Below, in pieces: positions 26,999-53,550 of a stretch of DNA of 64,000 nucleotides (positions are counted from its first letter, which is position 1; each line of letters starts with the position of its first letter). The notes beneath the pieces were generated by a model. That model searched no databases, had not been told where the DNA came from, and saw nothing but the letters and a program-made list of their open reading frames with translations. Made by a program: the position numbers and the translations under genes. The stretch is from a virus. The stretch lies in IMG/VR virus record IMGVR_UViG_3300044736_000098, positions 2,402 to 66,401 of that record. The stretch is one strand, 5' to 3'.

Positions 26999-27075
26999 TG
27001 GTAGCAGGGACCGGATTCGAACCGGCGACCTCGTGGTTATGAGCCACGCGAGCTAGGCCACTGCTCCACCCTGCA
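26999..27075 (-). tRNA. tRNA-fMet (initiator, CAT), CCA encoded
   Basis: TGCAGGG TG GAGC AGTGGCCTA GCTC G CGTGG CTCATAA CCACG AGGTC GCCGG TTCGAAT CCGGT CCCTGCT ACCA; 1:72 mismatch and A11:U24 are initiator features. Confidence 0.92.
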
Positions 27076-27275
27076 AACTTGTCGTCCGGCGCCGCTGCTA
27101 CTAGCGCAGCGCCCTATGTGACTTACTTGGCGGCGTGGCTGTCAGGCGGCGCCGGACGATTTGAAAAATAACCCCGCTGAGGCGCTTCAATGAGAGGCGT
27201 GCGGGGTGTTGTTTTATGCGGAAAGTCAGCGAACGGTTACATGGTGTGATCCTGAGACTTTCTCACGGCTCGCAG

Positions 27276-27304
27276 AATGTATCATTCGCTGCCCCGTTTG
27301 TCAA
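27276..27304 (-). promoter_or_regulatory. Probable late promoter
   Basis: TTGACA-N17-TACATT upstream of tRNA and terminase. Confidence 0.6.
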
Positions 27305-27333
27305 CAGTCGACAAAATCGCCGGAAGTTGACAG

Positions 27334-27738
27334 TTAGGCGGGCGTCCGGAGTTCGAGCGCGTACCGCATACCCTCGCGAATCGTCTCGACCTTTTCCAAG
27401 TCGACCGTCTTAGCGCCGGCTTCGCGCTGATCCGCCAGCCACAGGCCGATCAGAAATTCCTCGTCGAAACCGTTGACCGCTTCCGGGTCGACTGGTTCGG
27501 ACTCGACCTTGGGTGCATCCGCCAGGTATTCTTCCGGCGGCGGCAGAAACACGCATTCCGTGCCTTTGATCGTGGCCAGGGCGAGAATCATGCCGTTGGC
27601 GTAACCGTACATATACGGATTCACGTTGAAGTTGCCGGGGGTCGATTGAATCGCCACCATATTTTCCAAGTCCGTGATCGCCTTGGTGGCTCGCTGTGTC
27701 TCTGCCGAAGTATGATACGGCTGTCTCTTGGTGCTCAC
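27334..27738 (-). CDS. Hypothetical protein
   Basis: GTG start after GAAGGA; GN...N.YM.G.ANG.ILA. Confidence 0.6.
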   Translation of the reverse strand: MSTKRQPYHTSAETQRATKAITDLENMVAIQSTPGNFNVNPYMYGYANGMILALATIKGTECVFLPPPEEYLADAPKVESEPVDPEAVNGFDEEFLIGLWLADQREAGAKTVDLEKVETIREGMRYALELRTPA

Positions 27739-28229
27739 TTCGTTTCCTTCCGTGGGTTGAATTGCCAGTCTCTCCGCATCCCCCTGGGCACGTTGCCCCG
27801 CAGAGCTGCGAAATGTTTCAGCGCCGTGGCCAGGTGCTCCCGCGCCGTGCCCTTGCGCCACCGATTCGACGCGTCAATGTCCATGAGCGACGTTTCCGCG
27901 TAGAGTACCGCGTCAGCCACCCGCAAATAAATCGTATCGCGTAAGTCCGATCGCCACTGCCTCTGCACCGTGGTCAACGTGACCCGCGTAGCCGCATGAT
28001 CGTCCGCAGCGTCGGCGCGGAGCGCAAGGGGGATATCTAGATCCGGGTCGCGCACGACGGGTTGGCCTGCGGCCATCTTGAACGCGGCAAGAATTTCGTC
28101 CGCCGCCTGGTACTCGAACATATCCATGTATGGGCGAAGGCGCGCGAGCGGCGCCGTGGACATGCGCGATCCGGCGCGAACTACTGTGCGAATCTTATTG
28201 GAGCGGGGAGGGGAGGGACGGCGTTTCAC
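27735..28229 (-). CDS. Putative late-gene regulator (C-terminal HTH-like)
   Basis: Position before late promoter; SL.DI......R.G.A...L..AL. Confidence 0.5.
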   Translation of the reverse strand: MKRRPSPPRSNKIRTVVRAGSRMSTAPLARLRPYMDMFEYQAADEILAAFKMAAGQPVVRDPDLDIPLALRADAADDHAATRVTLTTVQRQWRSDLRDTIYLRVADAVLYAETSLMDIDASNRWRKGTAREHLATALKHFAALRGNVPRGMRRDWQFNPRKETK

Positions 28230-28718
28230 AGTCTTTTGCAGCCCGGTCCACGAGGACAGCGCGCGTTGCGCCAGTCACACTTACAGGGCGGCGCCCCGCG
28301 CCACGCGTCTCGGAGGGACTCGCCCAAGTCCCCATCAACTGCGCAACGGTATGCGTTGGCGTCCCGGCATAGACGCCCGCCGTGGTCACGTCGAAGGCAT
28401 GTGCCTTTTCGCGCAGTTCCGCCGCGCGCTCGTGGCCGCTGTCCGCCAATGCGTGCATTTGAATCGAAAGCGTAATGAATACGCAACCCGAGCACGTACA
28501 ATTCGAAATCGTGCGTTCCCTGCGTGTGGTCCCACTTGAACCACTGCGGCGAGAAGCCGACCGACAGTTTGTTGGAAAAACTTCTGCCGTCTCCGACGAA
28601 CGAGTCGGGGAACGTGGTTTCCCAACAAACGCGAAAAAGACAATAGCTGTACCATGCGCGGCGATACCGACGGCTCGGTGTGCGCCAGCGGAAATTAGCG
28701 CCCGCGCGCCGTGTTGCT

Positions 28719-28985
28719 TCAAGCGCCATGGAGAAACTCCGCACGCCGTGCCGCCACGGACTTAGCCGGTTTGCTCCCGTAATCAATGCCAACGTAGCGC
28801 GGCCCCTTAGGAGGCAACCCGTCGACCAAATTGCTACGCACGCCCCATCCCAACCCGGCGTCCAGCTCGTAGCGCTCCGCCTTCGCTTTGCCTTTCCAGA
28901 ACGCGTTGATGTGGTCGGCGAGCAGCCCGGCGCCGTACTTGGAGAAAAAATCAGTTTTGGGCGGGAAGGGGGACTTTTTCATCAT
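28719..28985 (-). CDS. Hypothetical protein
   Basis: LA..I.AFW and VRSNLV.GLP; overlapping-operon arrangement. Confidence 0.6.
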   Translation of the reverse strand: MMKKSPFPPKTDFFSKYGAGLLADHINAFWKGKAKAERYELDAGLGWGVRSNLVDGLPPKGPRYVGIDYGSKPAKSVAARRAEFLHGA

Positions 28986-29224
28986 GCCACCACTCGCTGC
29001 GTGGTGGTGACTTCAACAAGGACGCCACCCCACGCGTACCAGCGCGTTTCTTCGCCGTAGATAGTGGAAACCGTTGTTTTTATGTCAGCCCCACCGTTCC
29101 AGAGCATTGCGTCGAGCAGTAGTTGCTCAAGAGTCGACTTGCCTACGCCTTGTGAACCTTCAATGGTCACACGAATGATGCGGGGTTGCGGCGGGTGGTA
29201 CTGTACGGGTTTCACTTGCTGCAT
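28982..29224 (-). CDS. Hypothetical protein with P-loop-like GSQGVGKST
   Basis: First gene after repeated promoter; AAGGA SD. Confidence 0.55.
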   Translation of the reverse strand: MQQVKPVQYHPPQPRIIRVTIEGSQGVGKSTLEQLLLDAMLWNGGADIKTTVSTIYGEETRWYAWGGVLVEVTTTQRVVA

Positions 29225-29927
29225 TTCCTTGTGTCGGGGTGCAGCATGTAGGCAAATTTGTAAAAAGTCAACAGAAATCTAGCGTCCTATCAAAAGGGAC
29301 GGCACACATGCGTCGTCTCGTTATAGTATCCGGTACAAAACCCGTGACTCTCTGCTTTCCCAAAAATATAACCGAACACCGCCCCGCATAGCGTGAAAAC
29401 AATTGCCGCATAGATCGTCACGTCTCATCCTCCACCTGTTCGCGCGGAAAGAACGGGTCGCGCGCCTCGTAAATCTGGCGCATGGCGCAACAGTAGCCGA
29501 AGCTCGCGTGGCAGCGATCGAGCAACCGTTGCGCTTCGACCGCTATTGCGTAGTCCACGGCTTTCTTAAGTTGGGCAGTATCAAATTGCATTTAGCGTAT
29601 CTCGTTTATCATTTTAGTCGATCACGCGTCTCTAATGATCCGCCAGCGGTCGCGGTGTTGACTGGCCGGGGCAGTTCGCTAGGGTGCAGTAGGCGTAACG
29701 ATCACGTAGTCCACATGTCCCGCACACCGAACCCGGACGACCGCCACCCTTTCCGATCCGTCCCGGCGCCAAGCGTTCGACTGCTTCCCAAAACACAAGA
29801 GCGGCGGCATCGTTCGTTGTGAAACCCGGCAGCCGCTCAATTGCACCCGTCGATATGTCAATGGAAACGACATTGCCGAACGTCATCCTGGAAGCACGCA
29901 AAGGTCCATCTAACATCTTTCCAGTAA

Positions 29928-30212
29928 TCACGTCACCACCTCCGCCGCTGCATCCGCCAAAATTCTGTAGCAATACTGCTTGCTAACCCCACACAATACC
30001 GCAATCCGCTCCACCACGATACCCTGTGCCGCCAGTCCGCGCACCATCCTCGGTGTGTCCGAGGTGGCGGTGCGGGCCTTCCTGGGGCGGGTGGGGCGTG
30101 CCTTTCTCAAGACGCCGTAGACGTAGCCGAGAGAAACGGGGAGGGCGTCCGCGATTTGCTGTGCGTCGTTGCCGGCGTCGTGGGCGGCGAGGATGGCGGC
30201 GGTGTGGTTCAT
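29928..30212 (-). CDS. Double-HTH small DNA-binding protein
   Basis: AQQIADALPVSLGYVY and ERIAVLCGVSKQYCYRIL. Confidence 0.6.
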   Translation of the reverse strand: MNHTAAILAAHDAGNDAQQIADALPVSLGYVYGVLRKARPTRPRKARTATSDTPRMVRGLAAQGIVVERIAVLCGVSKQYCYRILADAAAEVVT

Positions 30213-30709
30213 GCGACCCACGAGCGCGACAGAACGGTCCACTTCTCGCGAGGCTGTGCAACCATCGCCAGGGCAGCGGCTTTGGCTTCGTCAAGGCTCT
30301 GGGTTTCGCCTGCTGCTATTTGGTTGTGAAACGGGCCGCCCTTGCGAAGCCGCGTGTACACCTCGAAACCACACATACGCCCGCCCTGACTGTGTGGACA
30401 GTCATATGCGAGCAACTCAACACGCTCGCCGGCAGCATCAAGGAACATATGAACGGCGCGGCCCGGTCCTTTTGGTTCTGTTATCCATTCAATCGTTTTC
30501 ATTGGTGCCCGCTCGCTTGTTGCCATTTCCAGTTCGCCGAACGAGCGCAAGAAGCGCCTGGAATGGTCCGGGACAGCGATACACGCCACCGGACCGTCGT
30601 ATCCTTTGAGAAACGGAACGACCTCGCCGATACGACCGATGCCAATCAATTTGCGCGGCGCAGTCCACGAGTATACGCGCACCTTGTCGCCAACTTTGAA
30701 CGTGGTCAT
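30209..30709 (-). CDS. Hypothetical protein
   Basis: MTTFKVGDKVRV start; ATGA overlaps. Confidence 0.55.
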   Translation of the reverse strand: MTTFKVGDKVRVYSWTAPRKLIGIGRIGEVVPFLKGYDGPVACIAVPDHSRRFLRSFGELEMATSERAPMKTIEWITEPKGPGRAVHMFLDAAGERVELLAYDCPHSQGGRMCGFEVYTRLRKGGPFHNQIAAGETQSLDEAKAAALAMVAQPREKWTVLSRSWVA

Positions 30710-30894
30710 AGCCAAATCCGGTTATCGCGTTTCGCCGTCAGGCGGGAAATCGTTTCACGAGCACGAGCAACAAGCGTCTTTGCATTCGCATCGCCGCTAT
30801 CGGCAATCTCGCGCAGGTTACAGAGCGTCGTGCGCGCTGCGTGCAGGTCGCGTTCGTCTTGTTTGGTAAGGCGGGATTTTGATGCTTTGCTCAT
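30706..30894 (-). CDS. Small leaderless hypothetical protein (intact copy of duplicated gene)
   Basis: ATG 6 nt after the -10 of the repeated promoter; second copy at 62303-62492. Confidence 0.65.
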   Translation of the reverse strand: MSKASKSRLTKQDERDLHAARTTLCNLREIADSGDANAKTLVARARETISRLTAKRDNRIWL

Positions 30895-30941
30895 AACGCG
30901 AACTTACGCCAATTCTGCAAACAGTCAACACATAATTGAAC
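30706..30941. repeat. Direct repeat copy 1 (about 236 bp; copy 2 at 62303-62540)
   Basis: 30706-30858 identical to 62303-62455 (153 bp); remainder similar. Confidence 0.95.
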
Positions 30942-31000
30942 TGGTCACGGTTTAGTTATCTCGCCGTTTGTACAGCCACGCTTTACTTTCCCGCCCCGCT

Positions 31001-32610
31001 TCAAACTGCCCCGGAGAGGCCCGGCATCGGCACCGGCAAAACCGTCCCATCCGCCGTAATCTGCAACACGCTAGTCCTGCTTGCCCCATTTGGCACTAAA
31101 AGCGCCCCGTCCTGCCGTATCCACCGTGCATCGGCGGCGTGGCTGGAGAGGGAAGCAGGTACGCTAAAGACTTCGCCCTTGTCCGTCACCACCTCGCACG
31201 TTCCGTCACGTTCCCACGCCTTGCGAATCGGCAGCCATCCGCCATCCCGCGCCGAACCTGTTTTGTAGCTCGAAATTAGGGCGGCACCGCTCGGGGTTTC
31301 CAGAAGCTTCGCCACCGCGGCTGGTCCGCGCTCGCCGGCACGCATGTCGTATCCGCAGCCGGGGCAATCCATCACGCCCTTGGCCACGCACGCAAGGCAC
31401 GCGGGGCATAACTTGGTCATTGGTTCGTCGCAGGACCAGCACCGCGCCGCAGCCGCGGCGTTTCTTTTTGAGCACACCTCACAGGATACTAGGCGCGCGG
31501 CTGTGTCTTTGGGGCGGATAAAATCGAGCGGGCCATGTGTAGAAATCAGATTCGCGAAATCGAGGACAATTGCGTCGGCCTTGCCGGCCGCGATACTAGT
31601 TTCAATGCTGCCGCCGATCGTCCGCAACAGTCTACCTGTCATCTGGATATATAACCCCAACGACTTCGTTGCGCGACGCATGACGAGCATGTCCACTTCT
31701 TGGACGTCGAACCCTGTGGTCAGCGCCGAAACGTTGACCAGGCAGCGCAGCCGACCCGCACGATATGCCGCAATGGTCGCCGCGCGCTGCCCCGCTGGCG
31801 TCTCGCCGAGCACCAGACCTGTCGCCACGCCCCACTCATTGAGTCGCGCTGTCATGGCTTTCGCCGCCTTGGTAGACGCCTCGAACACTAACCAAGCGCG
31901 TCGATCCCTTCCAAGAACGAGCATCTGCGCAATATGATTATCAATCAGGCCGAGCATCTGCGCATCTTGCGATTCGCCCGTGAAGTCGCCTTGTCGCGTC
32001 TTTAGCTTGGTAGAATCAATTTTGTCATCCACCGTTACGCTAAAAGCGGGAACTAGGTAGCCGTCGCGAATACCGTCAACAATGGTGTATCGATAAGATA
32101 CTGCGGAAAAAGGGGCTTCCTCGCCATCCACAAGCGAACCACCTTGGAGTCGAAATACGGTGCCACTGAAACCCGCAATGCGTACCATCAGGAAAAGTTC
32201 CGCAATAACTCGCGATACATACCTTGCTGCGCGTGGGGCAGCAAGTGCGCCTCGTCAATAAAAATATTGGCAATCGGACCAAATGATGCTCCGTTTTTGT
32301 AGACCGATTGGATAGCCGCACTGATAACCGGAGCGCGCCACGTGCGTTCGCCAAGGGCCGCGGCGTTAATGCCGCACGTGAGACCGAGCGCACGGCATGC
32401 AATGGCGTTCTGTTCGACTAACTCGCGGGTGTGCGCAAGGATCAAGGACCGCTCGCCACGCTCCCAACCGCGCCGCGCCAGTTCTGCCATAATCAGGGAT
32501 TTACCAGAGCCGACACATGAATCGACCAGTGGGCGCTCTACGCCGTTACGCCACGCCGCTTCGACCGCATCGGCTGCCGCAAGCTGATTTGGGCGGAGAA
32601 CTACCTGCAT
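31001..32610 (-). CDS. SF2 DEAH helicase (RadD/YejH-like) with C-terminal Zn ribbons; frameshifted near 32188
   Basis: GSGKS and DEAH in 32188-32610; SGT, LTTGFD, QM.GR and CxxC repeats in 31001-32188. Confidence 0.85.
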
Positions 32611-33593: not shown

Positions 33594-33623
33594 GCAGGAA
33601 ACTTACATCACAACTGCAAAATG

Positions 33624-35331: not shown

Positions 35332-35581
35332 ACCGCAAAGCTACAACAAATTTGCAAACAGTCAACAATTAATTGCGCTCTAAGGCGAGATAGTTCGGTG
35401 CCAAAGCCGAAATAAATCCGACCCTCTCGCGCGTCCGCACCACTTCCTCCCCGAACCGGCTCCCGTACCCCTCTGGGGCACATCCTGGCCGCGTCCTCGT
35501 CGTTCACGTCCCATATCAGGCGGCACACGGCGCAGTGCATCTGATCGCTTCCGGTGTGGCGAGCTGCGCAGGGGGTTTCCA

Positions 35582-36025
35582 TCATGAGCCGAGCGCCGCG
35601 TGAAGTATCGTAACGTCACCGCCGCTATGCGGGTCATGTTTCACCGCTGCGTGTACGGCTGTCCCCGCGCCGGCACCGGCAAACATGGCGCCAAGCGCAT
35701 AATCCATACCCGATCCGAACGCGAAATAATCTGCCTCACACCGGAACGCGCCATTCACTTCGAACACATCGATGTCGCCCGCTTTGCGGAAAATCACGCC
35801 GCGATCATGATGTCGCTCCGATTCGGTAGCCTTTGGCTGTTCGTCGTTTTCGCCAGCAAGAAACCAGGCGATAAACAGCGCGTTGAAATTTGCGTTACCG
35901 GCTGCGCCTGCCATGTCGCCATCGTCGCGCCGGACTATCTTGACGACGCGGCCAATCATTGTGCCGCCCTGACACATCGCCGTGTCGGCCGCGAGCACAC
36001 CGTCTTTGAATGCGATGGTGGTCAC
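35582..36025 (-). CDS. Ntn-hydrolase (proteasome-beta/HslV-like) protein
   Basis: N-terminal TTIA....LAAD; A.GSG..A.GAM; D..SGG. Confidence 0.75.
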   Translation of the reverse strand: MTTIAFKDGVLAADTAMCQGGTMIGRVVKIVRRDDGDMAGAAGNANFNALFIAWFLAGENDEQPKATESERHHDRGVIFRKAGDIDVFEVNGAFRCEADYFAFGSGMDYALGAMFAGAGAGTAVHAAVKHDPHSGGDVTILHAALGS

Positions 36026-36523: not shown

Positions 36524-36985
36524 TCACCCTTGCGCCTCCAACGTCTGATAATAAAACGCGTGCAGGAAGCCCAACCGAAACGGATCCCGCCCAAGGCGCC
36601 GCATATGCCACGCCCACAAAATACGCCCGGTGCGGCCGTTGCCGTCGGTGTAGGGATGCAGCATTTCGAAGCCAACATGGACTTGGTAAGGCGAGGTGGA
36701 CACGTGAGTATCGTTCAAGATGCTGCGGAGGCGGTCCCGAATCACAATTCCACCCCGCGGCGCGATGTAGTTACCCACGCGCACGTCGAGGCCCGGCCGG
36801 TCGCGTAGGACGTGACCAGGTGCGAAGGCTTGCTGCACGTTGTTCAAGTCTTGCAGCGTCAGCGTTTCCATTTCGAGGAAACGCGCCGCCGTCACCAATT
36901 CGTGCTGATACGGGTCGCGGTGGATACCCTCGATGGCATTGGACTCGCGCAGGAAAGCGGAAAGTCGGGCGTCTGTACGGGTCAT
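36524..36985 (-). CDS. Fic-domain protein (AMPylase-like)
   Basis: ESNAIEG and catalytic HPYTDGNGRTGR. Confidence 0.9.
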   Translation of the reverse strand: MTRTDARLSAFLRESNAIEGIHRDPYQHELVTAARFLEMETLTLQDLNNVQQAFAPGHVLRDRPGLDVRVGNYIAPRGGIVIRDRLRSILNDTHVSTSPYQVHVGFEMLHPYTDGNGRTGRILWAWHMRRLGRDPFRLGFLHAFYYQTLEAQG

Positions 36986-37170
36986 GAGGCGAACTCCTCC
37001 CGACCTGCAGCGGTCAGACGCCATTTCCATGTTGATTTGACGAATTCAATCAACCCAAGCCGCTTGAGACGTTGCCGCGCCTTATCAGTTGGGCGATCAC
37101 TCGACGAAATATCCTCGCCGGCAAGCAGCCGTTTAATTTGTGAATACTCGATGTCGTCAAGCCGCCGCAT
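36982..37170 (-). CDS. Small winged-helix-like protein
   Basis: RQRLKRLGLIEF....WRLT.AG. Confidence 0.5.
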   Translation of the reverse strand: MRRLDDIEYSQIKRLLAGEDISSSDRPTDKARQRLKRLGLIEFVKSTWKWRLTAAGREEFAS

Positions 37171-37708
37171 TTGCTACCCCCGTGTGCGCCCTACTCAACA
37201 CACGCAAAGCCGCATTCGCCGCCCGCGTCTGCCCTATCGCATCGTTAAGCGCCACATGCGGCGGCGGGACCGCGAAGTCGCGCAGGGACACGGACGCGAG
37301 GTCGTACAAGGTGCGGGTGTCGCGCACGCTCCAGAAGGCCCAAGGCGGTTCGAGGCCGGCCGCGCGGTAAAGGTGCTCAAGCAGGGGACAGTCGAACGTC
37401 GCGCCGTGGCACCAGATCAGCGCGTCCCCTGCCGGCGCGGCCCATGCGATCCAGGCGGAGAAATGTTCGAGCGCGGCGCGGACGGGAACGGGATTCGACG
37501 TCGCGGCCTGCCATGCTTCGGGCGACTGCGTGCCCCACCATTGCAAGGTCGAAACGTCTTTGACTAGGCCGAGCGCCTCTTGCTCTGGAACGGAGAGGTT
37601 CAAAGTCGTGTGCGCCTCGTCCGAAAAACGCACGAACGCTGCGGCGAGCACGATGGCGCCGGGACGCGTGCCCAAGGTTTCGATATCCAGCATCAAGTGC
37701 GTGGTCAT
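37157..37708 (-). CDS. DEDD 3'-5' exo(ribo)nuclease (Rv2179c/DUF5051-like)
   Basis: MLDIETLG, TLQWW, W.HGA.FD, RD.RT, H.AL.DA..Q. Confidence 0.85.
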   Translation of the reverse strand: MTTHLMLDIETLGTRPGAIVLAAAFVRFSDEAHTTLNLSVPEQEALGLVKDVSTLQWWGTQSPEAWQAATSNPVPVRAALEHFSAWIAWAAPAGDALIWCHGATFDCPLLEHLYRAAGLEPPWAFWSVRDTRTLYDLASVSLRDFAVPPPHVALNDAIGQTRAANAALRVLSRAHTGVANAAA

Positions 37709-37947
37709 AGTCCGAGCGCCTTTCGTACATCAGCACGCGCTTGGTAGTCGCCCGACGCTGCGGCGATCTGAATGACGCGCAGCAGTTTATCGAATTCGTT
37801 CTTTTCGGCCGGCAACTGAAAAACGAATTCGGGCCAATGCTTTCCAATTGGGACAACCGAAACCGCTGTTGCTGTGTCTACATCAGCGACGACGTTGCCT
37901 TTCCAATAGGAGCGGCGCATTCCATGATCGACAAACGAGTGGTCCAC
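37705..37947 (-). CDS. Hypothetical protein
   Basis: GTG after GGAGG, downstream of structured leader. Confidence 0.55.
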   Translation of the reverse strand: MDHSFVDHGMRRSYWKGNVVADVDTATAVSVVPIGKHWPEFVFQLPAEKNEFDKLLRVIQIAAASGDYQARADVRKALGL

Positions 37948-38048
37948 GTTTCGCCTCCAAATTGTTGCCCCGGCCCGCAATCCCGCCCGTCGGCTACGCG
38001 GTATTTATCCGGGGCCTTACCTCGCAAGGGCGAACCCGATGCGAGAAT

Positions 38049-38114
38049 GTGGCCCTCTACCAAACTGAGATACGTTCCGAAGAACGGTTGGACTCGAACC
38101 AACGACCCGCCACT
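38049..38114 (-). ncRNA. Circularly permuted tRNA-like RNA (T arm, capped acceptor stem, D arm; YrlA-module-like)
   Basis: A GTGGC GGGTC GTTGG TTCGAGT CCAAC CGTTC TTCG GAACG TA TCTC AGTTTGGTA GAGG GCCAC. Confidence 0.75.
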
Positions 38115-38120: not shown

Positions 38121-38148
38121 AACCTACAACCAATTTGCCGAAAGTCAA
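38121..38148 (-). promoter_or_regulatory. Repeated phage promoter driving the tRNA-like RNA
   Basis: TTGACT-N16-TAGGTT; predicted +1 at 38114. Confidence 0.75.
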
Positions 38149-39592: not shown

Positions 39593-40339
39593 TCACGCCG
39601 CCGCCTTTGGTGCAACAAGTTTCCACTTCCTGCACTTCGCGATCGCAAGCATGTGCGCGACGATCAGCAACGACTCGTCACCGATCGGCGTTCCTTTCCT
39701 GGTGCGCTTCCAATGCGCAATTGCCTCTTTCGGATCCAGGTTACGACAACCGGCTTTGACGCGTGGACCTTCCTCAGGGAAATTGGTCAATAAGAAGCGA
39801 TATCCATCTGATCGCAACCCACCATCAATGATCGGCTGGCCGTCGAGGTTGGCGCCGTCGAGGTTGGCGCCGTCGAGGTTGGCGCGTGTGAGGTTGGCGC
39901 CGTCGAGGTTGGCGCCGTCGAGGTTGGCGCGTGTGAGGTTGGCGCCGTCGAGGTTGGCGCGTGTGAGGTTGGCGCCGTAGAGGTTGGCGCGTGTGAGGTT
40001 GGCGCGTGTGAGGTTGGCGCCGTAGAGGTTGGCGCGTGTGAGGTTGGCGCGTGTGAGGTTGGCGCCGTCGAGGTTGGCGCGTGTGAGGTTGGCGCGTGTG
40101 AGGTTGGCGCCGTCGAGGTTGGCGCGTGTGAGGTTGGCGCCGTCGAGGTTGGCGCGTGTGAGGTTGGCGCCGTAGAGGTTGGCGCCGTCGAGGTTGGCGC
40201 CGTCGAGGTTGGCTGAATTTTCTTTCGCCCAACGAACCGCCAGGCCCATCTTGATCGACGGTAACGCATCGTCCGCGCAATCAATCTCCGCAGTGAATTG
40301 CATTTCACCCGACCAGCGATTCAATACATTGAATTTCAT
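39593..40339 (-). CDS. Pentapeptide repeat protein
   Basis: 25 ANLxx repeats; C-terminal R.DGY.F...AGCR. Confidence 0.92.
   Translation of the reverse strand: MKFNVLNRWSGEMQFTAEIDCADDALPSIKMGLAVRWAKENSANLDGANLDGANLYGANLTRANLDGANLTRANLDGANLTRANLTRANLDGANLTRANLTRANLYGANLTRANLTRANLYGANLTRANLDGANLTRANLDGANLDGANLTRANLDGANLDGANLDGQPIIDGGLRSDGYRFLLTNFPEEGPRVKAGCRNLDPKEAIAHWKRTRKGTPIGDESLLIVAHMLAIAKCRKWKLVAPKAAA
39839..40213. repeat. 15-bp tandem repeat x25 (three unit variants)
   Basis: GCCAACCTC followed by GACGGC, TACGGC or ACACGC on the minus strand. Confidence 0.95.
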
Positions 40340-47108: not shown

Positions 47109-47896
47109 GCGGCCAGCCTCTCGCGTATCCTGGCGGCACGCTCCAACCCTGCCACCAACGGCGCCAGCCACACCTTCGAAATGCGTTCCTGCGCAATAGC
47201 AAAGTAAGTCGGATCGCGCTCAATGCCGATGAAACGGCGGCCGGTTTGGAGGGCAGCCACGCCAGTGGTGCCGGACCCCATCGTATTGTCCAAGACGGTA
47301 TCGCCGGGGTTGGTGTAGGTCCGGATCAGGTATTCCATCAGCGCGACGGGTTTTTGAGTGGGATGGAGTCCAAGTTCCAGTTTGTTGTCACCCGGTATCG
47401 GTAAGACGCTGCATGGGTTGTGTTGTCCGAGATTAACTCCAATCCGGGTTACAGTCGCATCAACGTCGCCAACGTGCTCGCCGTGTCCTCTCGTGCGTTT
47501 GACGTTGTACGCCTTACCCTCGCGCCACTGCTTGTTGTAGGTTGGTAACGAACGATAGAATACGGCGACATCCTCGTGCCGCTTTAATGGCATGCGATTC
47601 GCGTTTAGAGCGCCTGTGTATTTATTGACCTTGTCCCATATCCACTCATATCGAAAATCCGTGTAGTTGCTGGCGATCAACGCTGTGGTAAACGGCTGCG
47701 ACGCCGTAAGCACAATCGCCGCGTTTGGCTTCGCTACTCTCCTGTACTCACGCCACAACGGCTCGAACGGAATCACCGAATCCCACGCACACGCAGTGGT
47801 CCCATACGGTAAATCCGCCAGCACAAGGTCCACGCTGCCCGCCTCAAGGCGCGCCATCACTTCCAAGCAGTCGCCTTGGTAAAGTTGGAGGGTCAC
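47105..47896 (-). CDS. DNA methyltransferase (beta class)
   Basis: DLPYG, HPTQKP, LDNTMGSGTTG. Confidence 0.92.
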   Translation of the reverse strand: MTLQLYQGDCLEVMARLEAGSVDLVLADLPYGTTACAWDSVIPFEPLWREYRRVAKPNAAIVLTASQPFTTALIASNYTDFRYEWIWDKVNKYTGALNANRMPLKRHEDVAVFYRSLPTYNKQWREGKAYNVKRTRGHGEHVGDVDATVTRIGVNLGQHNPCSVLPIPGDNKLELGLHPTQKPVALMEYLIRTYTNPGDTVLDNTMGSGTTGVAALQTGRRFIGIERDPTYFAIAQERISKVWLAPLVAGLERAARIRERLAA

Positions 47897-48519
47897 GCGC
47901 GAAGCGCCTGGATACGGGCGGCCCTAGCGAGGCCAGCAAGTAGGGGAGCAAGGTCCGGAGCGGGCGCGGCAGTCGGCAACGCAAGTCGCTCGTACCTGGT
48001 CACTGACGCGCTGCGCGGACCCCATACGGTCCACAGACAATTAAAATACGGCGAGCCGCTGCCCGTGAAATCCACCCGCCACGTCAACGCGTAAATCGCT
48101 TCGGGAACGCGACGATTCCACAATTTTGAACGGGCAGCGGCATGCCAAAGGTTGACGTTGAGCAACATGGCGATATGCGGCACATCAAGGTCAAGCGCGT
48201 GTTTGATGAAAGCCGTTACCAGTTTGCCGAACGGCGGGTTGGTGATTAGGGCGTCCGCGCGGCGCTTGCGTTCTGCTAAAAAATCAAGCCCGCCGGTCCC
48301 ATATCCGCGGTCAACAAGATCCGTGCCGATAACCCGGAAACCCGCGTTTTCCAGGGGTTTTGCGATTCCGCCGTCACCACACGCAGGCTCCCAAACTGTT
48401 CGCGGCCAATGAGCAAGGCGTGGAATCAATGCGACGGTCGGCTCTGGCGGCGTCGGATAAAAATCGTTTTCACGTCGTTCGCCGCCGTTGATAGCGGCCC
48501 GAATCATTCCGTGCGTCAT
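47893..48519 (-). CDS. SAM-dependent (N6A-type) methyltransferase
   Basis: DFYPTP, WEPACGDG, ITNPPF. Confidence 0.88.
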   Translation of the reverse strand: MTHGMIRAAINGGERRENDFYPTPPEPTVALIPRLAHWPRTVWEPACGDGGIAKPLENAGFRVIGTDLVDRGYGTGGLDFLAERKRRADALITNPPFGKLVTAFIKHALDLDVPHIAMLLNVNLWHAAARSKLWNRRVPEAIYALTWRVDFTGSGSPYFNCLWTVWGPRSASVTRYERLALPTAAPAPDLAPLLAGLARAARIQALRA

Positions 48520-48764
48520 CGGAGAGGCACCGGACAGGCAGGGAGCGCAACGGGACACGCCGGCAACGCAACCTCGCATCCCAACACCGCCGCCACTGCG
48601 GCGCTACAAGTCGCTTCCACTTGCACGCGCCACCCACCGCCCCGCTCCACTTGAAGCGATGCCTGCCAGCCCCAGCCGTCGCCGGGCAGAGCGGGATGCT
48701 TGGTGCGACAGATATTCAGCGCAACAAATTCGGTGCGGTCTAGGGCGTCGAGGGTGGGGAGCAT
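48516..48764 (-). CDS. Hypothetical protein (leaderless)
   Basis: ATG 6 nt after the -10 of the repeated promoter. Confidence 0.55.
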   Translation of the reverse strand: MLPTLDALDRTEFVALNICRTKHPALPGDGWGWQASLQVERGGGWRVQVEATCSAAVAAVLGCEVALPACPVALPACPVPLR

Positions 48765-48894
48765 TCGCCCAAACTACGGCAATTTTGTAAAAAGTCAACA
48801 GAAAGCGAAGCGATGTTGATAAATGAGGGACGTGGAAAAAGTCACAGGGTCGCGGCGGGACGCAACAGTTAGTGTCAACGGCGGCGGGCAGACA

Positions 48895-49299
48895 CTACTT
48901 CGGCCGCCAGTTCGTGCCCTTCTCTTTCAGCTCCCGGATCAAACGCTTCGTGAGACCGTCCTGCGGATTGATGCCCTTGTCGCCGAGCGCCTTGATTGTC
49001 TTGGTCAACTCGCGGGCGTCCTCGATTGAAATAAAATCGTCCGCGCCCTTGTTCAAAACGCCCAACTTCAACAGACACCGTTCCTCGCCGCAAAAATAAT
49101 TCGCCGACAAGGTAATAGAGCCGCTCGGAAGTACCGTGTAACGCAAGCCTGTCACCATATCGTCGGACAGGTTCGCCCGCGTCATAAGGCTCTTGCCGTT
49201 CTGCAGATCCTTGGCAATGCCAAACAGGGTTGCTTCCGTGAATTTGGTCCCCTTTTTCATACCTTGTTTTTCGGTTTCTCGAATGTACTGACGCGCCAT
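48895..49299 (-). CDS. Stand-alone integrase arm-type DNA-binding domain protein
   Basis: GL.Y.V.PSG......Y.....LG......I.DAR.......G.NP; GGAGG SD; TTGACA-N17-TAAAAC promoter at 49332-49360. Confidence 0.7.
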   Translation of the reverse strand: MARQYIRETEKQGMKKGTKFTEATLFGIAKDLQNGKSLMTRANLSDDMVTGLRYTVLPSGSITLSANYFCGEERCLLKLGVLNKGADDFISIEDARELTKTIKALGDKGINPQDGLTKRLIRELKEKGTNWRPK

Positions 49300-49552
49300 A
49301 ATTAGTCACCTCCAAAATGCCGTAGGGGCGAGTTTTATTTGCGGGCGGACGGCGTGTCAATGAAAAAGATTGCAATAAGTGTTGACTTTTGGCAAAAAAC
49401 AAAAAAGCAGCGAGTCGCGCCTTCCCGCCGCAATTCTTTTACAAATCTGTTGACTTTTCCCAAATCGGGTCTACTTTGGCTTCGCACTGCATCCACTTAC
49501 CCGGACCAATTTTATGGCACCGGACTTTTCAGCCCCATGGGAAAACACCATC

Positions 49553-50212
49553 ATGTCAATTACAATACGGCTCACGCCCACGTCGCATCACGTGGAGTTC
49601 GAGGTCGGCTCGCCCGAAGAAGGAATCGGCTTTGTCTCGGAGAAGGGCGACGCACTGATGCGCCTGCTTGACGTGCTGGATCGATTGCCCAAGGGCGAAG
49701 GCAGCGAGCTGGAAGTGCCCGCAGAAGCCGGCGCACCCGTGAAGGAACGCAAACCGCGCGGCCCGAACAAACCCAAGGTGGAAGCGGTAGCCCCGGCACC
49801 ACTGGCCGTTCCGGGTGCAGCGCCAAGCCCGCCGGTTCCGACTGCGCCAGTTGCTCCTGTGGCGCCCGCACCGGCCGCACCGATCAATACCGCAGAGGGT
49901 GCGAACGGTATTCCTGCGTTCCTCGACCGCACGGGCGCTCCTGCCGCACCTCCCGCCCCGGCTGCACCTCCCCCGCCACCACCGGCCCCTCCCGCACTCC
50001 CGCCGTCGGGCGTGCTTGCGGAGAAGATCATCGCGAACCTGGACAAGCGCAAGGCCGGGACGCCGGACGGTGGCCAGTCGCTCGCCGATTGGCTCGCCGG
50101 CTGCGGCATTACGATCAAGGGCGCGACCTACGACGAAGCGATCGCCGTGCTGCGACTGCAAACGGACGCGAAGCTGCAACCGCTGTTGGGACCGCTCGAA
50201 ATCGCCGCTTAA
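49553..50212 (+). CDS. Pro/Ala-rich early protein
   Basis: First gene after rightward promoter; GIPAFLDR motif. Confidence 0.7.
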   Translation: MSITIRLTPTSHHVEFEVGSPEEGIGFVSEKGDALMRLLDVLDRLPKGEGSELEVPAEAGAPVKERKPRGPNKPKVEAVAPAPLAVPGAAPSPPVPTAPVAPVAPAPAAPINTAEGANGIPAFLDRTGAPAAPPAPAAPPPPPPAPPALPPSGVLAEKIIANLDKRKAGTPDGGQSLADWLAGCGITIKGATYDEAIAVLRLQTDAKLQPLLGPLEIAA

Positions 50213-50537
50213 GGGCCGCAGAAGGGAAGGGCCGCGCGACGTGGTGTTGCGCGGCCAAGATGGGGACGGGACGAGACGTGGCGAACGACGTGGAAATCAA
50301 AGTCGGCGGCACCTACAACTTAGGTGGTCAATCTCGATTCCCGCATCGTGTACTCGCCATAACGGAACATCCTTCTGTGCCGGGCGACAAGCGTGTTTTT
50401 ACGCGGGTTTTGCGCCCCGACGGCTCCCTTGGTTCCAACGAAAACAAGTGGAGCCTCGCGGTTTTAGCGTCTCGTGTCGTCGAGGAAGTTGCGATTGACC
50501 AGAGGTGCGACGGTTGTAAGCCGGCGGAGATACGCGG

Positions 50538-50768
50538 ATGCTAGTCACCATCGTCGCCACGCTCTGCTCCCTCGCGGGCCTCTGCGTCGAGGAAATCGTG
50601 ACCGATTCCACCCTCGAACCCCAACTTACTTTCCAGTCGTGCCTTTCGGGAGCGCAAGCGCCGCTCGCCAAGTGGAAAGGCGAGCATCCGATTTATCGCT
50701 CTGAGCGTTACAGGATCGCCGGGTGGAAGTGCGTACCAGGGCGCTACGAGTTGCGGGGACGGGTGTAG
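50538..50768 (+). CDS. Small Cys-containing hypothetical protein
   Basis: GGAG SD. Confidence 0.55.
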   Translation: MLVTIVATLCSLAGLCVEEIVTDSTLEPQLTFQSCLSGAQAPLAKWKGEHPIYRSERYRIAGWKCVPGRYELRGRV

Positions 50769-51034
50769 TGATGCAGTGCCCGAAGTGTCACGCACTATCA
50801 GGTGACGACTGGTCGCAGTGCGGTGACGGGCCGTGTCCGATGCAGTGGAATTACAACTGTCGTTACCCCCGGCTCTCTTGGTGGCGATTGTGACGGCTCG
50901 TGTCAATGTCCGCCGCCCGCACCCTGCGAACCCTGCGAATATTGCGGCCCCGGCAAATCGACAGGACTGCCGGGCAACGCTTGCGAAAATTGCATGAATA
51001 CGGGACTTAAGAACCCGACAGCGGAGGATTTAGC

Positions 51035-52153
51035 ATGAACGCGCACGTAGACGAGTCTGCACAACATGCGGTTTATTCGCCTAGTTCCGGTCACGTATGG
51101 GCGGCGGAAGATGGCTGCACAGCGGCGCCGGAAGCTATCGCCGCGATGTACCGCGTAGTTCCAGAAGTAGAGGGCGAGGAAGCAATCGCTGGCACCGCCG
51201 CGCATGACGAACTGGAAAGGTGCATTGGCTCCCTCTCGGGCGATTTCGTCGATCCCGCGACAATGCCCATCCTTGAACCGGACCCGGATCATCCCGCCGC
51301 TTACGGCGTAGCCCTGATGATTGCCTACATTCGCCAGCTCCCACCTGGTCGGATGTGGGTCGAGCAACGCGTCATCTTGACCAAGGAAATTTGGGGCCGC
51401 GCCGATATCCAACACTGGCACGAGGAAAGCGTCACGCTCACTATACCCGATTTGAAAAACGGGTTCGTCGGCGTCGACGCAGAGGACAACGAGCAGACGC
51501 AAATTTACGCCGCCGCCGCAATCGGGATGCACAAACTGCCGGCGAAATGGATACGGCACGCAATTTGTCAGCCGAACGATTTTAGACCCGGCCCTAGAAT
51601 CAAGCAGCATGTGCAGAGCGTAGAGTCACTCTCTACGTTTGCCAACCGCGTCGCCGCCATTCCCTACGGTCCCAAGACGTTCCGTTTCGGCGAACACTGC
51701 CGCGACTGCCCGCTGCTCGGCACGTGCCCGCCGACCAAGGACGTATTGGCGCAATTCGCCGCGGTTGTCGCTACCGGCACCGACCCGACGCCCGCGCAAA
51801 TCCCGCTGTTCGTGGCCCTCAAAAAGCCGATAGACCATTTCTTCGAAGGGCTGATGAAAAACGGCACCAAGAAAGCCTTGGCGGGCCATGTGCCGCCGGG
51901 GATGAAACTGGTCACGGCGACGAAGCACCGGCAGTGGAAGTCGGAAGCGGACGCGCGGGCCGCTGTCCTGCGGGAACGGGGTGTCGAGGCGCTGAAACCG
52001 CCGACGCCGGCACAAGCAGAGGATATGGGAATCGACATATCGGGGCTTGCGGATAAGCCCGAAGGCGGCCCGGCCCTGGCATTCGAATCGGATCGCCGCG
52101 CTACATGGGCACCGAAGTCGGCTGCCGAGATGTTCAAGGACGTGACGGGATGA
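51035..52153 (+). CDS. DUF2800 / Cas4-like PD-(D/E)XK exonuclease
   Basis: SPS...W...C, GT.AH, VEQ, GRAD, DLK.G, Q..IY, G.HC..CP. Confidence 0.85.
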   Translation: MNAHVDESAQHAVYSPSSGHVWAAEDGCTAAPEAIAAMYRVVPEVEGEEAIAGTAAHDELERCIGSLSGDFVDPATMPILEPDPDHPAAYGVALMIAYIRQLPPGRMWVEQRVILTKEIWGRADIQHWHEESVTLTIPDLKNGFVGVDAEDNEQTQIYAAAAIGMHKLPAKWIRHAICQPNDFRPGPRIKQHVQSVESLSTFANRVAAIPYGPKTFRFGEHCRDCPLLGTCPPTKDVLAQFAAVVATGTDPTPAQIPLFVALKKPIDHFFEGLMKNGTKKALAGHVPPGMKLVTATKHRQWKSEADARAAVLRERGVEALKPPTPAQAEDMGIDISGLADKPEGGPALAFESDRRATWAPKSAAEMFKDVTG

Positions 52154-53550
52154 CTATCACAGGAGCTGATCTTATCCGATGGGGATACACGCCCGGTCCG
52201 TGGTTTAAGGCTGCGATTGCGCACGCGGCAACCCTTGCTGACCTTTCCGAACCGGACCTGCGCGCCGCTCTTTCCCGCTTCGCACCAGCGCCGGTCATTT
52301 ACCAAACGCGCCGCGAATCTGGCGCGCTCTCGTTCCACATGAACCTTGAAGCGGACACACCTGACGAGGTGACCAACGCGGCCGCAGTTGCCGAGCATAT
52401 GGCGGAGCTGATGCGCGTGCCGACCATTCGCGCTGGTGCCGTGATGCCTGATGCGTGCCCGGCCGGTTCGGCGAAGGGTACGATTCCCGTCGGCGGCATC
52501 GTTGCCGCGGAGAACGCTATTCATCCCGGTTACCACTCGGCGGATATTTGCTGTTCAATGGCGATTTCGGTGTTCGACAAGGGCGTGGACCCCGGCGCGG
52601 TGCTTGACGCTGGTATGAAGTTGTCGCACTTCGGCGCGGGTGGTCGTCCATATAGCGCGGACATGCGCCCGTCCGATTCGCTTCTTTCGCAGTTCGAAGG
52701 CAACCGCTTCCTTTCGACAACGACCGAGGCGGCAACGCGCCATTTCGGAACGCAGGGCGACGGTAACCATTTTTTCTACGTTGGGGTAGTGAAGTCCACG
52801 GGGCAAGTGGCGTTGGTAACGCACCACGGTTCGCGTAAGCCTGGCGCGCTGCTTTATAAGGCAGGTATGGCGGTGGCAGAGCGTAATACGCGGCTGGTTG
52901 CGCCGTCTGTGCCGAAGCATCAGGCCTGGATCGTGGCCGACTCGGAGGATGGGCAGGAGTACTGGAAAGCTCTGCAGATCATCCGCACATGGACAAAGAA
53001 AAATCACTTCGCCATTCATGACGCCGTTGCGAAGTACATCGGAACGCGCGTCAAAGATCGATTCTGGAACGAACACAACTTCGTTTGGCAAAAGTCCGAT
53101 GGACTCTTTTATCACGGGAAGGGCGCGACGCCTGCGTTTCCCTACTTCGCCGCCGACACGAACGGCTTGACGTTGATTCCGATGAATATGGCCGAACCGA
53201 TTCTGATAACGCGCGGCCTTGACGCGCCGAGCGGGTTGGGTTTCTCGCCGCACGGTGCCGGTCGAAATTTGAGCCGTACGGGGTTCAAGCGGACCCTTGG
53301 GAGCCACGAGACGGAAGCGGCGCTGCACGCGGCGGCCGGCCTCTCGGGGCAAGTGGATTGCCGTTGGTTTTCGGGCACACCGGACACCGGCGAAATGCCT
53401 GGTGCGTACAAAAACGCGGCTTCGGTGCGGAGGCAGATTGCGACGTTCGGACTGACTGAAATCGTCGACGAGGTGTTGCCTTATGGGTGCATCATGGCGG
53501 GCGAGGTCGACTGGCGACGAGCGGGAAAAGAAATGGGCGCGGACGCGTAG
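52150..53550 (+). CDS. rtcB: RtcB-family RNA ligase
   Basis: MPDAC, ADICC, GDGNHF, HHGSR, EHN, HGKGATP, SPHGAGR, E.PGAYK. Confidence 0.92.
   Translation: MTITGADLIRWGYTPGPWFKAAIAHAATLADLSEPDLRAALSRFAPAPVIYQTRRESGALSFHMNLEADTPDEVTNAAAVAEHMAELMRVPTIRAGAVMPDACPAGSAKGTIPVGGIVAAENAIHPGYHSADICCSMAISVFDKGVDPGAVLDAGMKLSHFGAGGRPYSADMRPSDSLLSQFEGNRFLSTTTEAATRHFGTQGDGNHFFYVGVVKSTGQVALVTHHGSRKPGALLYKAGMAVAERNTRLVAPSVPKHQAWIVADSEDGQEYWKALQIIRTWTKKNHFAIHDAVAKYIGTRVKDRFWNEHNFVWQKSDGLFYHGKGATPAFPYFAADTNGLTLIPMNMAEPILITRGLDAPSGLGFSPHGAGRNLSRTGFKRTLGSHETEAALHAAAGLSGQVDCRWFSGTPDTGEMPGAYKNAASVRRQIATFGLTEIVDEVLPYGCIMAGEVDWRRAGKEMGADA

What the first reader, a model, noticed from the sequence alone, without database searches (positions are those of the whole stretch)
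26999..53550. Candidate tRNA-protection kit: RtcB, tRNA-fMet, tRNA mimic and exoribonuclease
Seen: one prophage carries an RtcB ligase (52150-53550), an initiator tRNA (26999-27075), the permuted tRNA mimic, and a DEDD exonuclease in the same predicted operon as the mimic (37157-37708). Known: RtcB reseals 2',3'-cyclic phosphate/5'-OH breaks such as those made by anticodon nucleases; some VapC toxins cut tRNA-fMet; YrlA, Ro and RtcB co-occur in bacterial RNA-repair loci. Inference: a replace, repair and decoy strategy against tRNA-cleaving defences. The genes are not adjacent, so the link is a hypothesis.
Basis: inference. Interest (0 to 1): 0.72.

Follow-up and report, generated by a model that had tools for sequence, protein, structure and literature searches.

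The report
Four unlinked RNA-related phage accessory elements
A soil prophage really does carry an RNA-repair ligase, an initiator-type tRNA, a tRNA look-alike RNA and an exonuclease, but its relatives carry them in different combinations, so they look like separate add-ons, not one defence kit.

Summary
All four elements exist at the stated places. They are an RtcB-family ligase with its catalytic histidines aligned, a tRNA-Met(CAU) with initiator hallmarks, a circularly permuted tRNA-like RNA that starts right after a repeated phage promoter, and a DEDDh exonuclease 340 nt downstream in the same terminator-free unit.

The proposed kit is not supported by comparison.
- RtcB is in 2 of 30 exonuclease-bearing viral records and 0 of 23 capsid relatives.
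- The exonuclease is in 4 of 26 RtcB-bearing records.
- A similar tRNA is in 3 of 47 relatives.
- The mimic is in 0 of 44 related records and is absent at the matching site of the closest relative.
- RtcB is cargo in a variable slot between the replication nuclease and the SSB gene.
- No Ro60 or RtcA gene is present.

Two results favour a partial link. RtcB loci in phages hold tRNA genes more often than exonuclease loci do (11/26 against 3/30). In bacteria, similar tRNA-like RNAs lie beside SPFH (80/104 loci) and RtcB (21/104 loci).

A rival role for the tRNA is to feed the phage's many leaderless mRNAs. The decoy idea for YrlA is already in print. No function was tested.

The parts
26999..27075 (-). 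tRNA-Met(CAU) of initiator type, CCA encoded. It lies between an intrinsic terminator that ends the early leftward genes and the packaging genes.
38121..38148 (-). One copy of the repeated phage promoter (TTGACT-N17-TAGGTT) that drives the mimic and the operon behind it.
38049..38114 (-). Circularly permuted tRNA-like RNA. In order: closing stem GUGGC/GCCAC, variable loop, T arm, 5-bp hairpin sealed by UUCG, U8-A9, D arm. There is no anticodon loop and no Ro-binding stem.
37705..37947 (-). 80-aa ORF with a GGAGG ribosome site and no family match. It is the first cistron after the mimic.
37157..37708 (-). DEDDh 3'-5' exonuclease of the Rv2179c-like family. Whether it acts on RNA or DNA is not settled.
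36524..36985 (-). Fic-domain protein in the same unit, with an HPYTDGNGR motif and an N-terminal SNAIEG.
35582..36025 (-). HslV-family peptidase-like ORF near the end of the same unit.
51035..52153 (+). DUF2800 / PD-(D/E)XK nuclease of the replication module. It forms the left border of the cargo slot.
52105..53550 (+). RtcB-family RNA ligase (phrog_1075), sitting as cargo in the slot between DUF2800 and SSB.
53641..54516 (+). Enc34-type ssDNA-binding protein with its own promoter copy at 53567-53594. It forms the right border of the cargo slot.
60269..61351 (+). Tyrosine integrase, which marks the element as a temperate phage.

Best explanation
The window is one roughly 60-kb temperate tailed prophage from a soil metagenome. 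Its host is probably an alphaproteobacterium (inferred). The four elements are separate accessory features, not one inherited module.

RtcB is a catalytically intact 3'-phosphate/5'-OH RNA ligase. It is carried as cargo in a variable slot of the replication module. It most likely reseals tRNA or other RNA cut by metal-independent RNases during infection (inferred from the family).

The tRNA is an initiator-type tRNA. It most likely raises the fMet-tRNA supply for a phage whose promoters mostly give leaderless mRNAs, and it may also replace host initiator tRNA (inferred).

The mimic is a lineage-specific, Ro-independent copy of the YrlA-type tRNA-like domain, made as the 5' end of an early operon. 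Its role is open: a competitor for tRNA-binding enzymes, or a stable 5' module or processing signal.

The exonuclease is a common phage DEDDh enzyme that relatives carry without the other three.
For: - Presence and integrity of all four elements.
- RtcB is in 2 of 30 exonuclease-bearing records (2 of 13 records at least 90% complete).
- RtcB is in 0 of 23 capsid relatives.
- The exonuclease is in 4 of 26 RtcB-bearing records and 1 of 23 capsid relatives.
- A window-like tRNA is in 3 of 47 records.
- YrlA-like RNA: none of 44 other records scored above 28 bits. The two best were checked. One spans adjacent tRNA genes. The other lies in a stretch with no paired T and D arms.
- The closest RtcB relative (89% identity) has the same promoter followed by a 12-nt hairpin, and no mimic.
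- The closest capsid relative (85%) has the exonuclease but neither mimic nor RtcB.
- Twelve close exonuclease loci have no tRNA-like motif upstream.
- Cargo slot: DUF2800 abuts SSB in G008. RtcB fills the slot in the window, G006 and G009. Other ORFs fill it in G003, G011 and G031.
- Leaderless layout: 8 of 12 promoter copies place ATG about 6 nt after the -10, at starts of ORFs of at least 60 aa.
- A review states that more fMet-tRNA strongly enhances leaderless translation (PMC9031893, passages read).
Against: - G009, a complete relative, holds RtcB, the exonuclease and a C1xA72 tRNA-CAT, which is three of the four elements.
- In bacteria, tRNA-like RNAs that match my T-arm/short-spacer/D-arm search pattern sit beside SPFH in 80 of 104 loci and beside an RtcB homologue in 21 of 104. 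23 of the 104 are permuted like the mimic and 81 are tandem tRNA-like units. An RtcB/tRNA-like partnership without Ro60 therefore exists elsewhere.
- Rv2179c is described as RNase T-like (PMC8628891, passage read), which would suit trimming of a tRNA-like RNA.
- Independent inheritance does not exclude cooperation within this one phage.
- G006 uses the same promoter family but has no such tRNA, so the tRNA is not required by the leaderless layout.
Confidence: 0.55

Rival explanations
1. The tRNA replaces cut initiator tRNA, RtcB reseals cut tRNAs, the mimic soaks up tRNA nucleases, and the exonuclease matures or recycles the mimic. All four act together against tRNA-cleaving defence.
For: - All four are in one phage.
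- G009 holds three of the four.
- RtcB loci are enriched for tRNA genes.
- Hughes et al. propose the YrlA tRNA-like domain as a competitive inhibitor of an anticodon nuclease (PMC7790460, passage read).
- The mimic and the exonuclease share a transcription unit.
Against: - The elements assort independently.
- The mimic is absent from every relative examined.
- RtcB lies 14 kb away on the other strand.
- The mimic lacks the anticodon loop.
- No viral record with a permuted tRNA-like element had RtcB (0 of 13). One of 13 had the exonuclease.
Confidence: 0.13
2. Only RtcB and the mimic are partners. They would be a phage version of bacterial RtcB operons that carry a tRNA-like RNA. The tRNA and the exonuclease are unrelated to this pair.
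For: - Bacterial loci run tRNA-like RNA, then SPFH, then RtcB on one strand.
- The Ferruginibacter RNA in L229 hits the same partial YrlA model region, 23-88, at 42 bits.
- The shared permuted fold has 96% paired cells, against 34-43% when partners are slid.
- G009 has SPFH, tRNA-Gln, RtcB and tRNA-Pro in the cargo slot.
- An SPFH gene inside the P. aeruginosa rtc locus is in print (PMC13086221, passage read).
Against: - The two are not adjacent here.
- None of the other RtcB phage records has such an RNA. Twenty-five of the 26 were scanned whole; for the 26th (L033, the same record as L008) only its two 20-kb loci were covered.
- 0 of 13 phage records with permuted tRNA-like RNAs have RtcB.
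- The phage RtcB is only 23-32% identical to the bacterial ones.
- The G009 SPFH did not match the bacterial SPFH by tblastn.
Confidence: 0.15
3. The mimic is a cis-acting 5' element of the operon mRNA. It could be a stable tRNA-like cap that blocks 5'-end decay, or a processing signal for tRNA-processing enzymes. On this reading it is not a trans-acting decoy.
For: - It starts where other promoter copies place a leaderless ATG.
- It is followed, with no terminator, by an ORF with a Shine-Dalgarno site.
- The closest relative has a simple hairpin at the same place.
Against: - The canonical T loop, D loop GG, U8 and the G15/C48 positions are kept, which is more than a plain stabilising hairpin needs (the reading of these positions is mine).
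- Related RNAs in bacteria look like separate genes ahead of operons.
Confidence: 0.2
4. RtcB serves DNA transactions of the replication module, such as sealing or capping 3'-phosphate DNA ends, and not tRNA repair.
For: - It sits between the replication nuclease and SSB and is co-oriented with PolA.
- E. coli RtcB acts on DNA 3'-phosphate ends, as cited in PMC7790460 (passage read).
Against: - The slot is variable cargo and is empty in G008.
- In G009 RtcB is flanked by tRNA genes.
- The family is annotated as a tRNA ligase in phages.
Confidence: 0.07

Closest known systems
Salmonella rsr-yrlBA-rtcBA RNA repair operon (Ro60/Rsr, YrlA Y RNA, RtcB, RtcA)
   Same: It combines an RtcB ligase with an RNA whose tRNA-like domain runs T arm, sealed acceptor-like hairpin, D arm. 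A decoy role for that domain has been proposed (PMC4201824 and PMC7790460, passages read).
   Different: - No TROVE/Ro60 gene and no RtcA gene is in the record.
- The RNA lacks the Ro-binding stem. Only model positions 23-88 match, at 36 bits against a gathering score of 69.
- RtcB and the RNA are 14 kb apart on opposite strands.
Phage tRNA sets accompanied by RNA ligases (RtcB, Rnl1, Rnl2) in large phages
   Same: It pairs phage-encoded tRNA with RtcB, read as supply plus repair against RNase effectors (PMC7824862 and PMC5648845, passages read). The T4 Pnk/Rnl1 against PrrC paradigm is recalled, not read.
   Different: This is a 60-kb temperate phage with a single tRNA, of initiator type, lying 25 kb from RtcB. 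It also carries a tRNA-like RNA without a TROVE protein.
Bacterial loci with tRNA-like RNA, SPFH/Band-7 and RtcB
   Same: The permuted tRNA-like fold, with covarying closing stem and hairpin, sits at the head of an operon in genomes that encode RtcB.
   Different: - The window has no SPFH gene in the 12 ORFs I scanned against Pfam: the operon behind the mimic, the pentapeptide gene and the right arm.
- The genes after the phage mimic are an unknown ORF, an exonuclease and Fic.
- Most bacterial cases are tandem tRNA-like units, not minimal permuted ones.
- Whether this bacterial system is already described I could not check. Burroughs and Aravind 2016 is not held.
Phage tRNAs as nuclease-resistant replacements (eLife 2023, PMC10264068; title and start of the abstract in a search listing only)
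   Same: It concerns a phage-encoded tRNA that differs from host-type tRNA. Here 29:41 is U:A, whereas alphaproteobacterial initiators have A:U (PMC5389676, passage read).
   Different: The anticodon loop here is the standard CUCAUAA. No nuclease or host is known for this phage.

Membership tests
RtcB RNA ligase (PF01139) | Domain match above the curated cut-off over most of the protein | tested here: met
   PF01139 scores 116.6 bits against a cut-off of 27. phrog_1075 scores 290 bits over residues 17-476 of 481.
RtcB RNA ligase (PF01139) | Metal-binding and guanylylated residues. The P. horikoshii numbers D95, C98, H203, H234, H329 and H404 are recalled. | tested here: met
   The alignment to 4dwr/1uc2 keeps H222 (GNHF), the His of THHGSR, the His of EHNF and H383 (HGAGR). 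D147 and C150 align only in a non-significant segment. MPDxH reads MPDAC.
RtcB RNA ligase (PF01139) | Joins 3'-phosphate or 2',3'-cyclic phosphate RNA ends to 5'-OH ends | not testable with these tools
   This needs an enzyme assay.
Bacterial initiator tRNA (tRNA-fMet) | CAU anticodon and a non-Watson-Crick 1:72 pair | tested here: met
   The anticodon is CAU. Positions 1 and 72 are U and U, whereas E. coli has C and A.
Bacterial initiator tRNA (tRNA-fMet) | Three consecutive G:C pairs at 29:41, 30:40 and 31:39 | tested here: not met
   The pairs are U29:A41, G30:C40 and G31:C39. Alphaproteobacteria naturally have A29:U41 (PMC5389676). The Mesorhizobium phage P1 tRNA has the same stem as the window.
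Bacterial initiator tRNA (tRNA-fMet) | Closest to known initiator genes, and A11:U24 in the D stem (feature recalled) | tested here: met
   It is 80.8% identical to the E. coli tRNA-Met cluster between mltA and amiC. The identity of that cluster as metZWV is recalled. GAGC/GCUC gives A11:U24.
YrlA Y RNA (RF02553) | Score at or above the Rfam gathering score | tested here: not met
   36.1 bits against 69, E 1.4e-4.
YrlA Y RNA (RF02553) | tRNA-like module: T arm, acceptor-like hairpin, D arm closed by a stem | tested here: met
   Model positions 23-88 align, and the fold of the isolated 73 nt shows this module. The architecture is shared, with covariation, by 18 other RNAs. The window's closing stem sits one column out of register in that alignment.
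YrlA Y RNA (RF02553) | Ro60-binding stem formed by the 5' and 3' ends | tested here: not met
   Model positions 1-22 and 89-114 are unmatched. The RNA begins 1-2 nt before the 5-bp closing stem, right after the promoter.
YrlA Y RNA (RF02553) | Encoded next to a Ro60/Rsr (TROVE) gene | tested here: not met
   PF05731 finds nothing in the 66.4-kb record, and the controls respond. The host genome is not available.
Rv2179c-like DEDDh exonuclease (PF16473) | Domain above cut-off with DEDDh residues | tested here: met
   106.3 bits against 27. D8, E10, D105, H151 and D156 are read from the translation. The motif assignment is mine.
Rv2179c-like DEDDh exonuclease (PF16473) | RNA, rather than DNA, as substrate | not testable with these tools
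   The nearest solved chains, 8ken and 8kel, are named 'Exodeoxyribonuclease'. Rv2179c itself is described as RNase T-like (PMC8628891).
Co-inherited RNA-protection module (the proposed kit) | Elements co-occur in relatives more than expected | tested here: not met
   Searches give 2/30, 0/23, 4/26, 0/44 and 3/47. Only G009 holds three of the four.

The most novel reading that the evidence does not exclude
The stand-alone tRNA-like RNA is the phage's own, Ro-independent version of the non-coding partner found at bacterial RtcB operons. It is made from the first base of an early transcript. It works with the phage RtcB, either by competing for tRNA-targeting nucleases or by presenting or activating repair. 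In parallel, the phage initiator tRNA keeps the leaderless phage mRNAs translated when host initiator tRNA is attacked.
Probability: 0.13. Interest if true: 0.75.

Novelty: new variant of a known kind. Interest (0 to 1): 0.4.

Why it matters
What the tRNA-like domain of bacterial Y RNAs does has been open since 2014. A phage that carries that domain alone, without the Ro-binding stem or Ro60, together with an intact RtcB, would be a minimal system to test whether the domain acts as a nuclease decoy or as an RtcB partner.

The pairing of a phage initiator tRNA with a mostly leaderless phage transcriptome gives a second, simple hypothesis: a tRNA supply for leaderless initiation.

As a four-part kit, however, the finding rests on co-presence in one genome only.

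Tried and rejected
- DNA search of 3 kb around the mimic against 50,697 phage records found no match.
- Blastn-short of the mimic region against 58 loci hit only the promoter part, in L008.
- The YrlA model run on 44 related records gave low hits only. The best (28 bits) spans two adjacent tRNA genes. The next (22.8 bits) lies in a stretch without T and D arms.
- Sub-threshold tRNA hits in G003, G005, G008 and G009 are anticodon-arm plus T-arm pieces. I read them as probable attP-type tRNA 3' parts. This was not tested, and I did not count them as mimics.
It returned mostly tightly spaced tandem tRNA genes.
- A narrower viral pattern gave 1 hit of a different design.
- The metagenome scan gave 1 hit, an ordinary YrlA next to a TROVE gene.
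- No RNA was close in sequence to the mimic (best alignment score 28 of a possible 66), so covariation of the mimic's own lineage could not be tested.
- Thermodynamic folding is not distinctive: z = -0.70 for the 73-nt element, and the longer context folds differently.
- Sequencing runs: no RNA holder is listed. Two soil-metagenome DNA runs hold the stretch, and one may be the source.
- I did not run structure prediction, complex prediction, the large protein searches or the protein atlas, because the families were clear.
- Supplements of Chen 2014 (the phage YrlA list) are closed and may bear on whether Ro-less phage YrlA-like RNAs are listed.
- Burroughs and Aravind 2016 is not held. It may already describe the SPFH-RtcB-tRNA-like loci.

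Full report
**Setting.** The window is 64,000 of the 66,401 bases of an IMG/VR provirus record, with about 59% G+C. Leftward genes 1-26.6 kb encode tape measure, major head protein, portal and large terminase. Leftward genes 27-50 kb encode a helicase, Fic, exonuclease, pentapeptide-repeat protein, PrimPol-VapE primase and a DNA methylase. Rightward genes 50.5-59.6 kb encode a DUF2800 nuclease, RtcB, an Enc34-type SSB and a family A polymerase, followed by an integrase at 60269-61351. No record of 50,697 deposited phages matches the mimic region at the DNA level. The only runs that hold the stretch are soil metagenomes.

**The four elements are real.**
- RtcB: PF01139 scores 116.6 bits and phrog_1075 'tRNA splicing ligase' scores 290 bits over nearly the whole protein. 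In the alignment to P. horikoshii RtcB the histidines of GNHF, HxGSR, HN and HGAGR are kept. The D-I-x-C motif aligns only in a weak segment, and MPDxH reads MPDAC.
- tRNA at 26999-27075(-): it has anticodon CAU and scores 59 bits with the Rfam tRNA model, with the 1:72 pair flagged as non-standard. It is 80.8% identical to the E. coli tRNA-Met cluster between mltA and amiC, which I recall to be the initiator genes metZWV. The alignment shows U1/U72, A11:U24, and G30:C40 and G31:C39, but U29:A41. Alphaproteobacterial initiators naturally carry A29:U41 (PMC5389676, passages read). The Mesorhizobium phage P1 tRNA has the same stem as the window. The nearest phage tRNAs come from phages of Mesorhizobium, Rhodobacter, Erythrobacter, Pseudomonas and Caulobacter. 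The alphaproteobacterial majority among them is my basis for the host guess.
- Exonuclease: it matches PF16473 (106 bits) and phrog_255, with DEDDh residues readable. Its nearest solved relatives are named 'Exodeoxyribonuclease', while Rv2179c is described as RNase T-like (PMC8628891, passage read). The substrate is therefore open.

**The mimic.** Rfam's YrlA model matches 38047-38112(-) at 36.1 bits (gathering score 69; E 1.4e-4), over model positions 23-88 only. This is the tRNA-like module without the flanking stem. Read directly, the RNA has these parts in order:
- closing stem, 5' strand GUGGC
- variable loop GGGUC
- T arm GUUGG-UUCGAGU-CCAAC
- hairpin CGUUC-UUCG-GAACG
- UA
- D arm UCUC-AGUUUGGUA-GAGG
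- closing stem, 3' strand GCCAC

The isolated 73 nt fold this way, although the energy is not unusual (z = -0.70). The RNA starts 6-7 nt after the -10 of promoter copy 38121-38148. This promoter family has 13 matches in the window against 0.5 expected. No minus-strand terminator follows before the next promoter at 35338-35365. The mimic therefore heads a unit with an 80-aa ORF, the exonuclease, a 62-aa ORF, Fic and an HslV-like peptidase. No TROVE gene and no RtcA gene is in the record.

**Do the elements travel together?** I collected three sets of relatives: 30 viral records with the exonuclease, 26 with RtcB and 23 with the capsid protein. The sets overlap little, which shows mosaicism.

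| Test | Result |
|---|---|
| RtcB in exonuclease-bearing records | 2 of 30 (2 of 13 near-complete) |
| RtcB in capsid relatives | 0 of 23 |
| Exonuclease in RtcB-bearing records | 4 of 26 |
| Exonuclease in capsid relatives | 1 of 23 |
| Window-like tRNA in relatives | 3 of 47, one a fragment at a contig end |
| YrlA-like RNA in related records | 0 of 44 convincing |

- At the matching site of the closest RtcB relative (89% identity) the same promoter is followed by AGTGGCGAACCAC and a ribosome site. The mimic looks like an insertion into, or a deletion from, that short hairpin.
- The closest capsid relative (85%) has the exonuclease but no mimic within 7 kb.
- Twelve close exonuclease loci have no tRNA-like motif upstream.
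- RtcB itself is cargo. DUF2800 abuts SSB in G008, RtcB fills the gap in the window, G006 and G009, and unrelated ORFs fill it in G003, G011 and G031.

**Results that speak for a partial link.**
- G009 carries RtcB, the exonuclease and a tRNA-CAT with C1xA72. Its RtcB is flanked by tRNA-Gln and tRNA-Pro and preceded by an SPFH gene.
- tRNA or tmRNA genes lie within the fetched 10 kb of RtcB in 11 of 26 loci, against 3 of 30 exonuclease loci (p = 0.012). RtcB phages are mostly larger, which confounds this comparison.
- A pattern for 'T arm, short spacer, D arm' hit 104 bacterial genome loci. An SPFH homologue lies within the locus (at most 8 kb) in 80, an RtcB homologue in 21, a TROVE homologue in 8 and the exonuclease in 0. 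The order is often RNA, SPFH, RtcB on one strand.
- Most of these RNAs are tandem tRNA-like units, but 23 are permuted like the mimic. The Ferruginibacter RNA hits the same partial YrlA region at 42 bits.
- An alignment of the window with 18 such RNAs supports the permuted fold. 96% of cells are paired, against 34-43% for slid partners, and all four hairpin pairs and three closing-stem pairs show compensatory changes. The rows were chosen by T- and D-loop motifs. The window's closing stem is one column out of register.
- Against this, 0 of 13 viral records with permuted tRNA-like RNAs have RtcB. Three have TROVE and one has the exonuclease (2 of 15 handles were not held).

**A rival role for the tRNA.** Eight of 12 promoter copies in family D2 place ATG about 6 nt after the -10, at the starts of ORFs of at least 60 aa. 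Most phage mRNAs should therefore be leaderless, and several relatives show the same layout. A review states that more fMet-tRNA strongly enhances leaderless translation and only mildly enhances canonical translation (PMC9031893, passages read). This explains an initiator tRNA without invoking defence. However, G006 shares the promoters and lacks such a tRNA.

**What is known.**
- Phage RtcB beside phage tRNAs as repair and supply is in print, as are TROVE proteins with a tRNA-like partner in some jumbo phages (PMC7824862; also PMC5648845; passages read).
- YrlA next to Ro60 occurs in more than 250 bacteria and phages (PMC4201824, passages read).
- The decoy idea for YrlA is stated in PMC7790460 (passage read).
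- An SPFH gene inside the P. aeruginosa rtc locus is noted in PMC13086221 (passage read).
- New here are the Ro-less, minimal form of the domain at +1 of a phage promoter, and its presence in a phage that also has RtcB.

**Verdict.** As a set of individually plausible roles it stands but is largely known. Function is untested.

Noticed in passing
L222-L325 (bacterial genome loci): tRNA-like RNAs, either tandem units with odd anticodon loops and weak acceptor stems or minimal permuted ones, lie beside an SPFH/Band-7 gene in 80 of 104 loci and beside RtcB in 21. The order is often RNA, SPFH, RtcB. In Mesorhizobium and Bradyrhizobium a caspase-TPR protein and a histidine phosphatase are nearby. 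This may already be described in a paper I could not read.
   Followed up: partly
window 27165-27306 (-): A TTGACA-N17-TACATT promoter-like site is followed after about 100 nt by a GC-rich hairpin and a U run. The sub-threshold 'abiF RNA' Rfam hit (27.1 bits) is this terminator hairpin. This may be a small RNA unit just upstream of the tRNA.
   Followed up: no
window 52105-53550 and L212-L215, L034: The gap between the DUF2800 nuclease and SSB is a variable cargo slot in this phage lineage. In G009 it also holds an SPFH gene and an ORF with a weak, below-cut-off Acb2/Tad1-hairpin match.
   Followed up: partly
window 3331-62531, promoter copies: Most copies of the repeated promoter put ATG about 6 nt after the -10, so the transcripts should be leaderless. 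At 38121-38148 the tRNA-like RNA takes the place of the ATG.
   Followed up: partly
window 30706-30858 and 62303-62455: A perfect 153-nt direct repeat lies 31.6 kb apart, with weaker similarity between 28321-28470 and 61664-61816.
   Followed up: no
window 36524-36985 (-): The Fic protein has an HPYTDGNGR motif and an N-terminal SNAIEG that fits the inhibitory S/TxxxE(G/N) motif (motif recalled). It is translationally coupled to a 62-aa ORF.
   Followed up: no
window 22771-23382 (-): A 203-aa ORF between portal and the next head gene gives weak NCBIfam matches to ADP-ribosyltransferase families (E 1.6e-5, far below the cut-offs).
   Followed up: no
L092, L105, L110, L139, L146, L153, L169 (viral contigs): Permuted tRNA-like elements in large viral contigs have no TROVE or RtcB gene in the six of these records that were held (L146's was not). 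Several are flanked by a repeated CAGCAA motif (ACAGCAA in most).
   Followed up: no
window 39770-40288: The pentapeptide-repeat gene (PF00805, 199 bits) shows as 24 overlapping copies of a 15-nt period.
   Followed up: no
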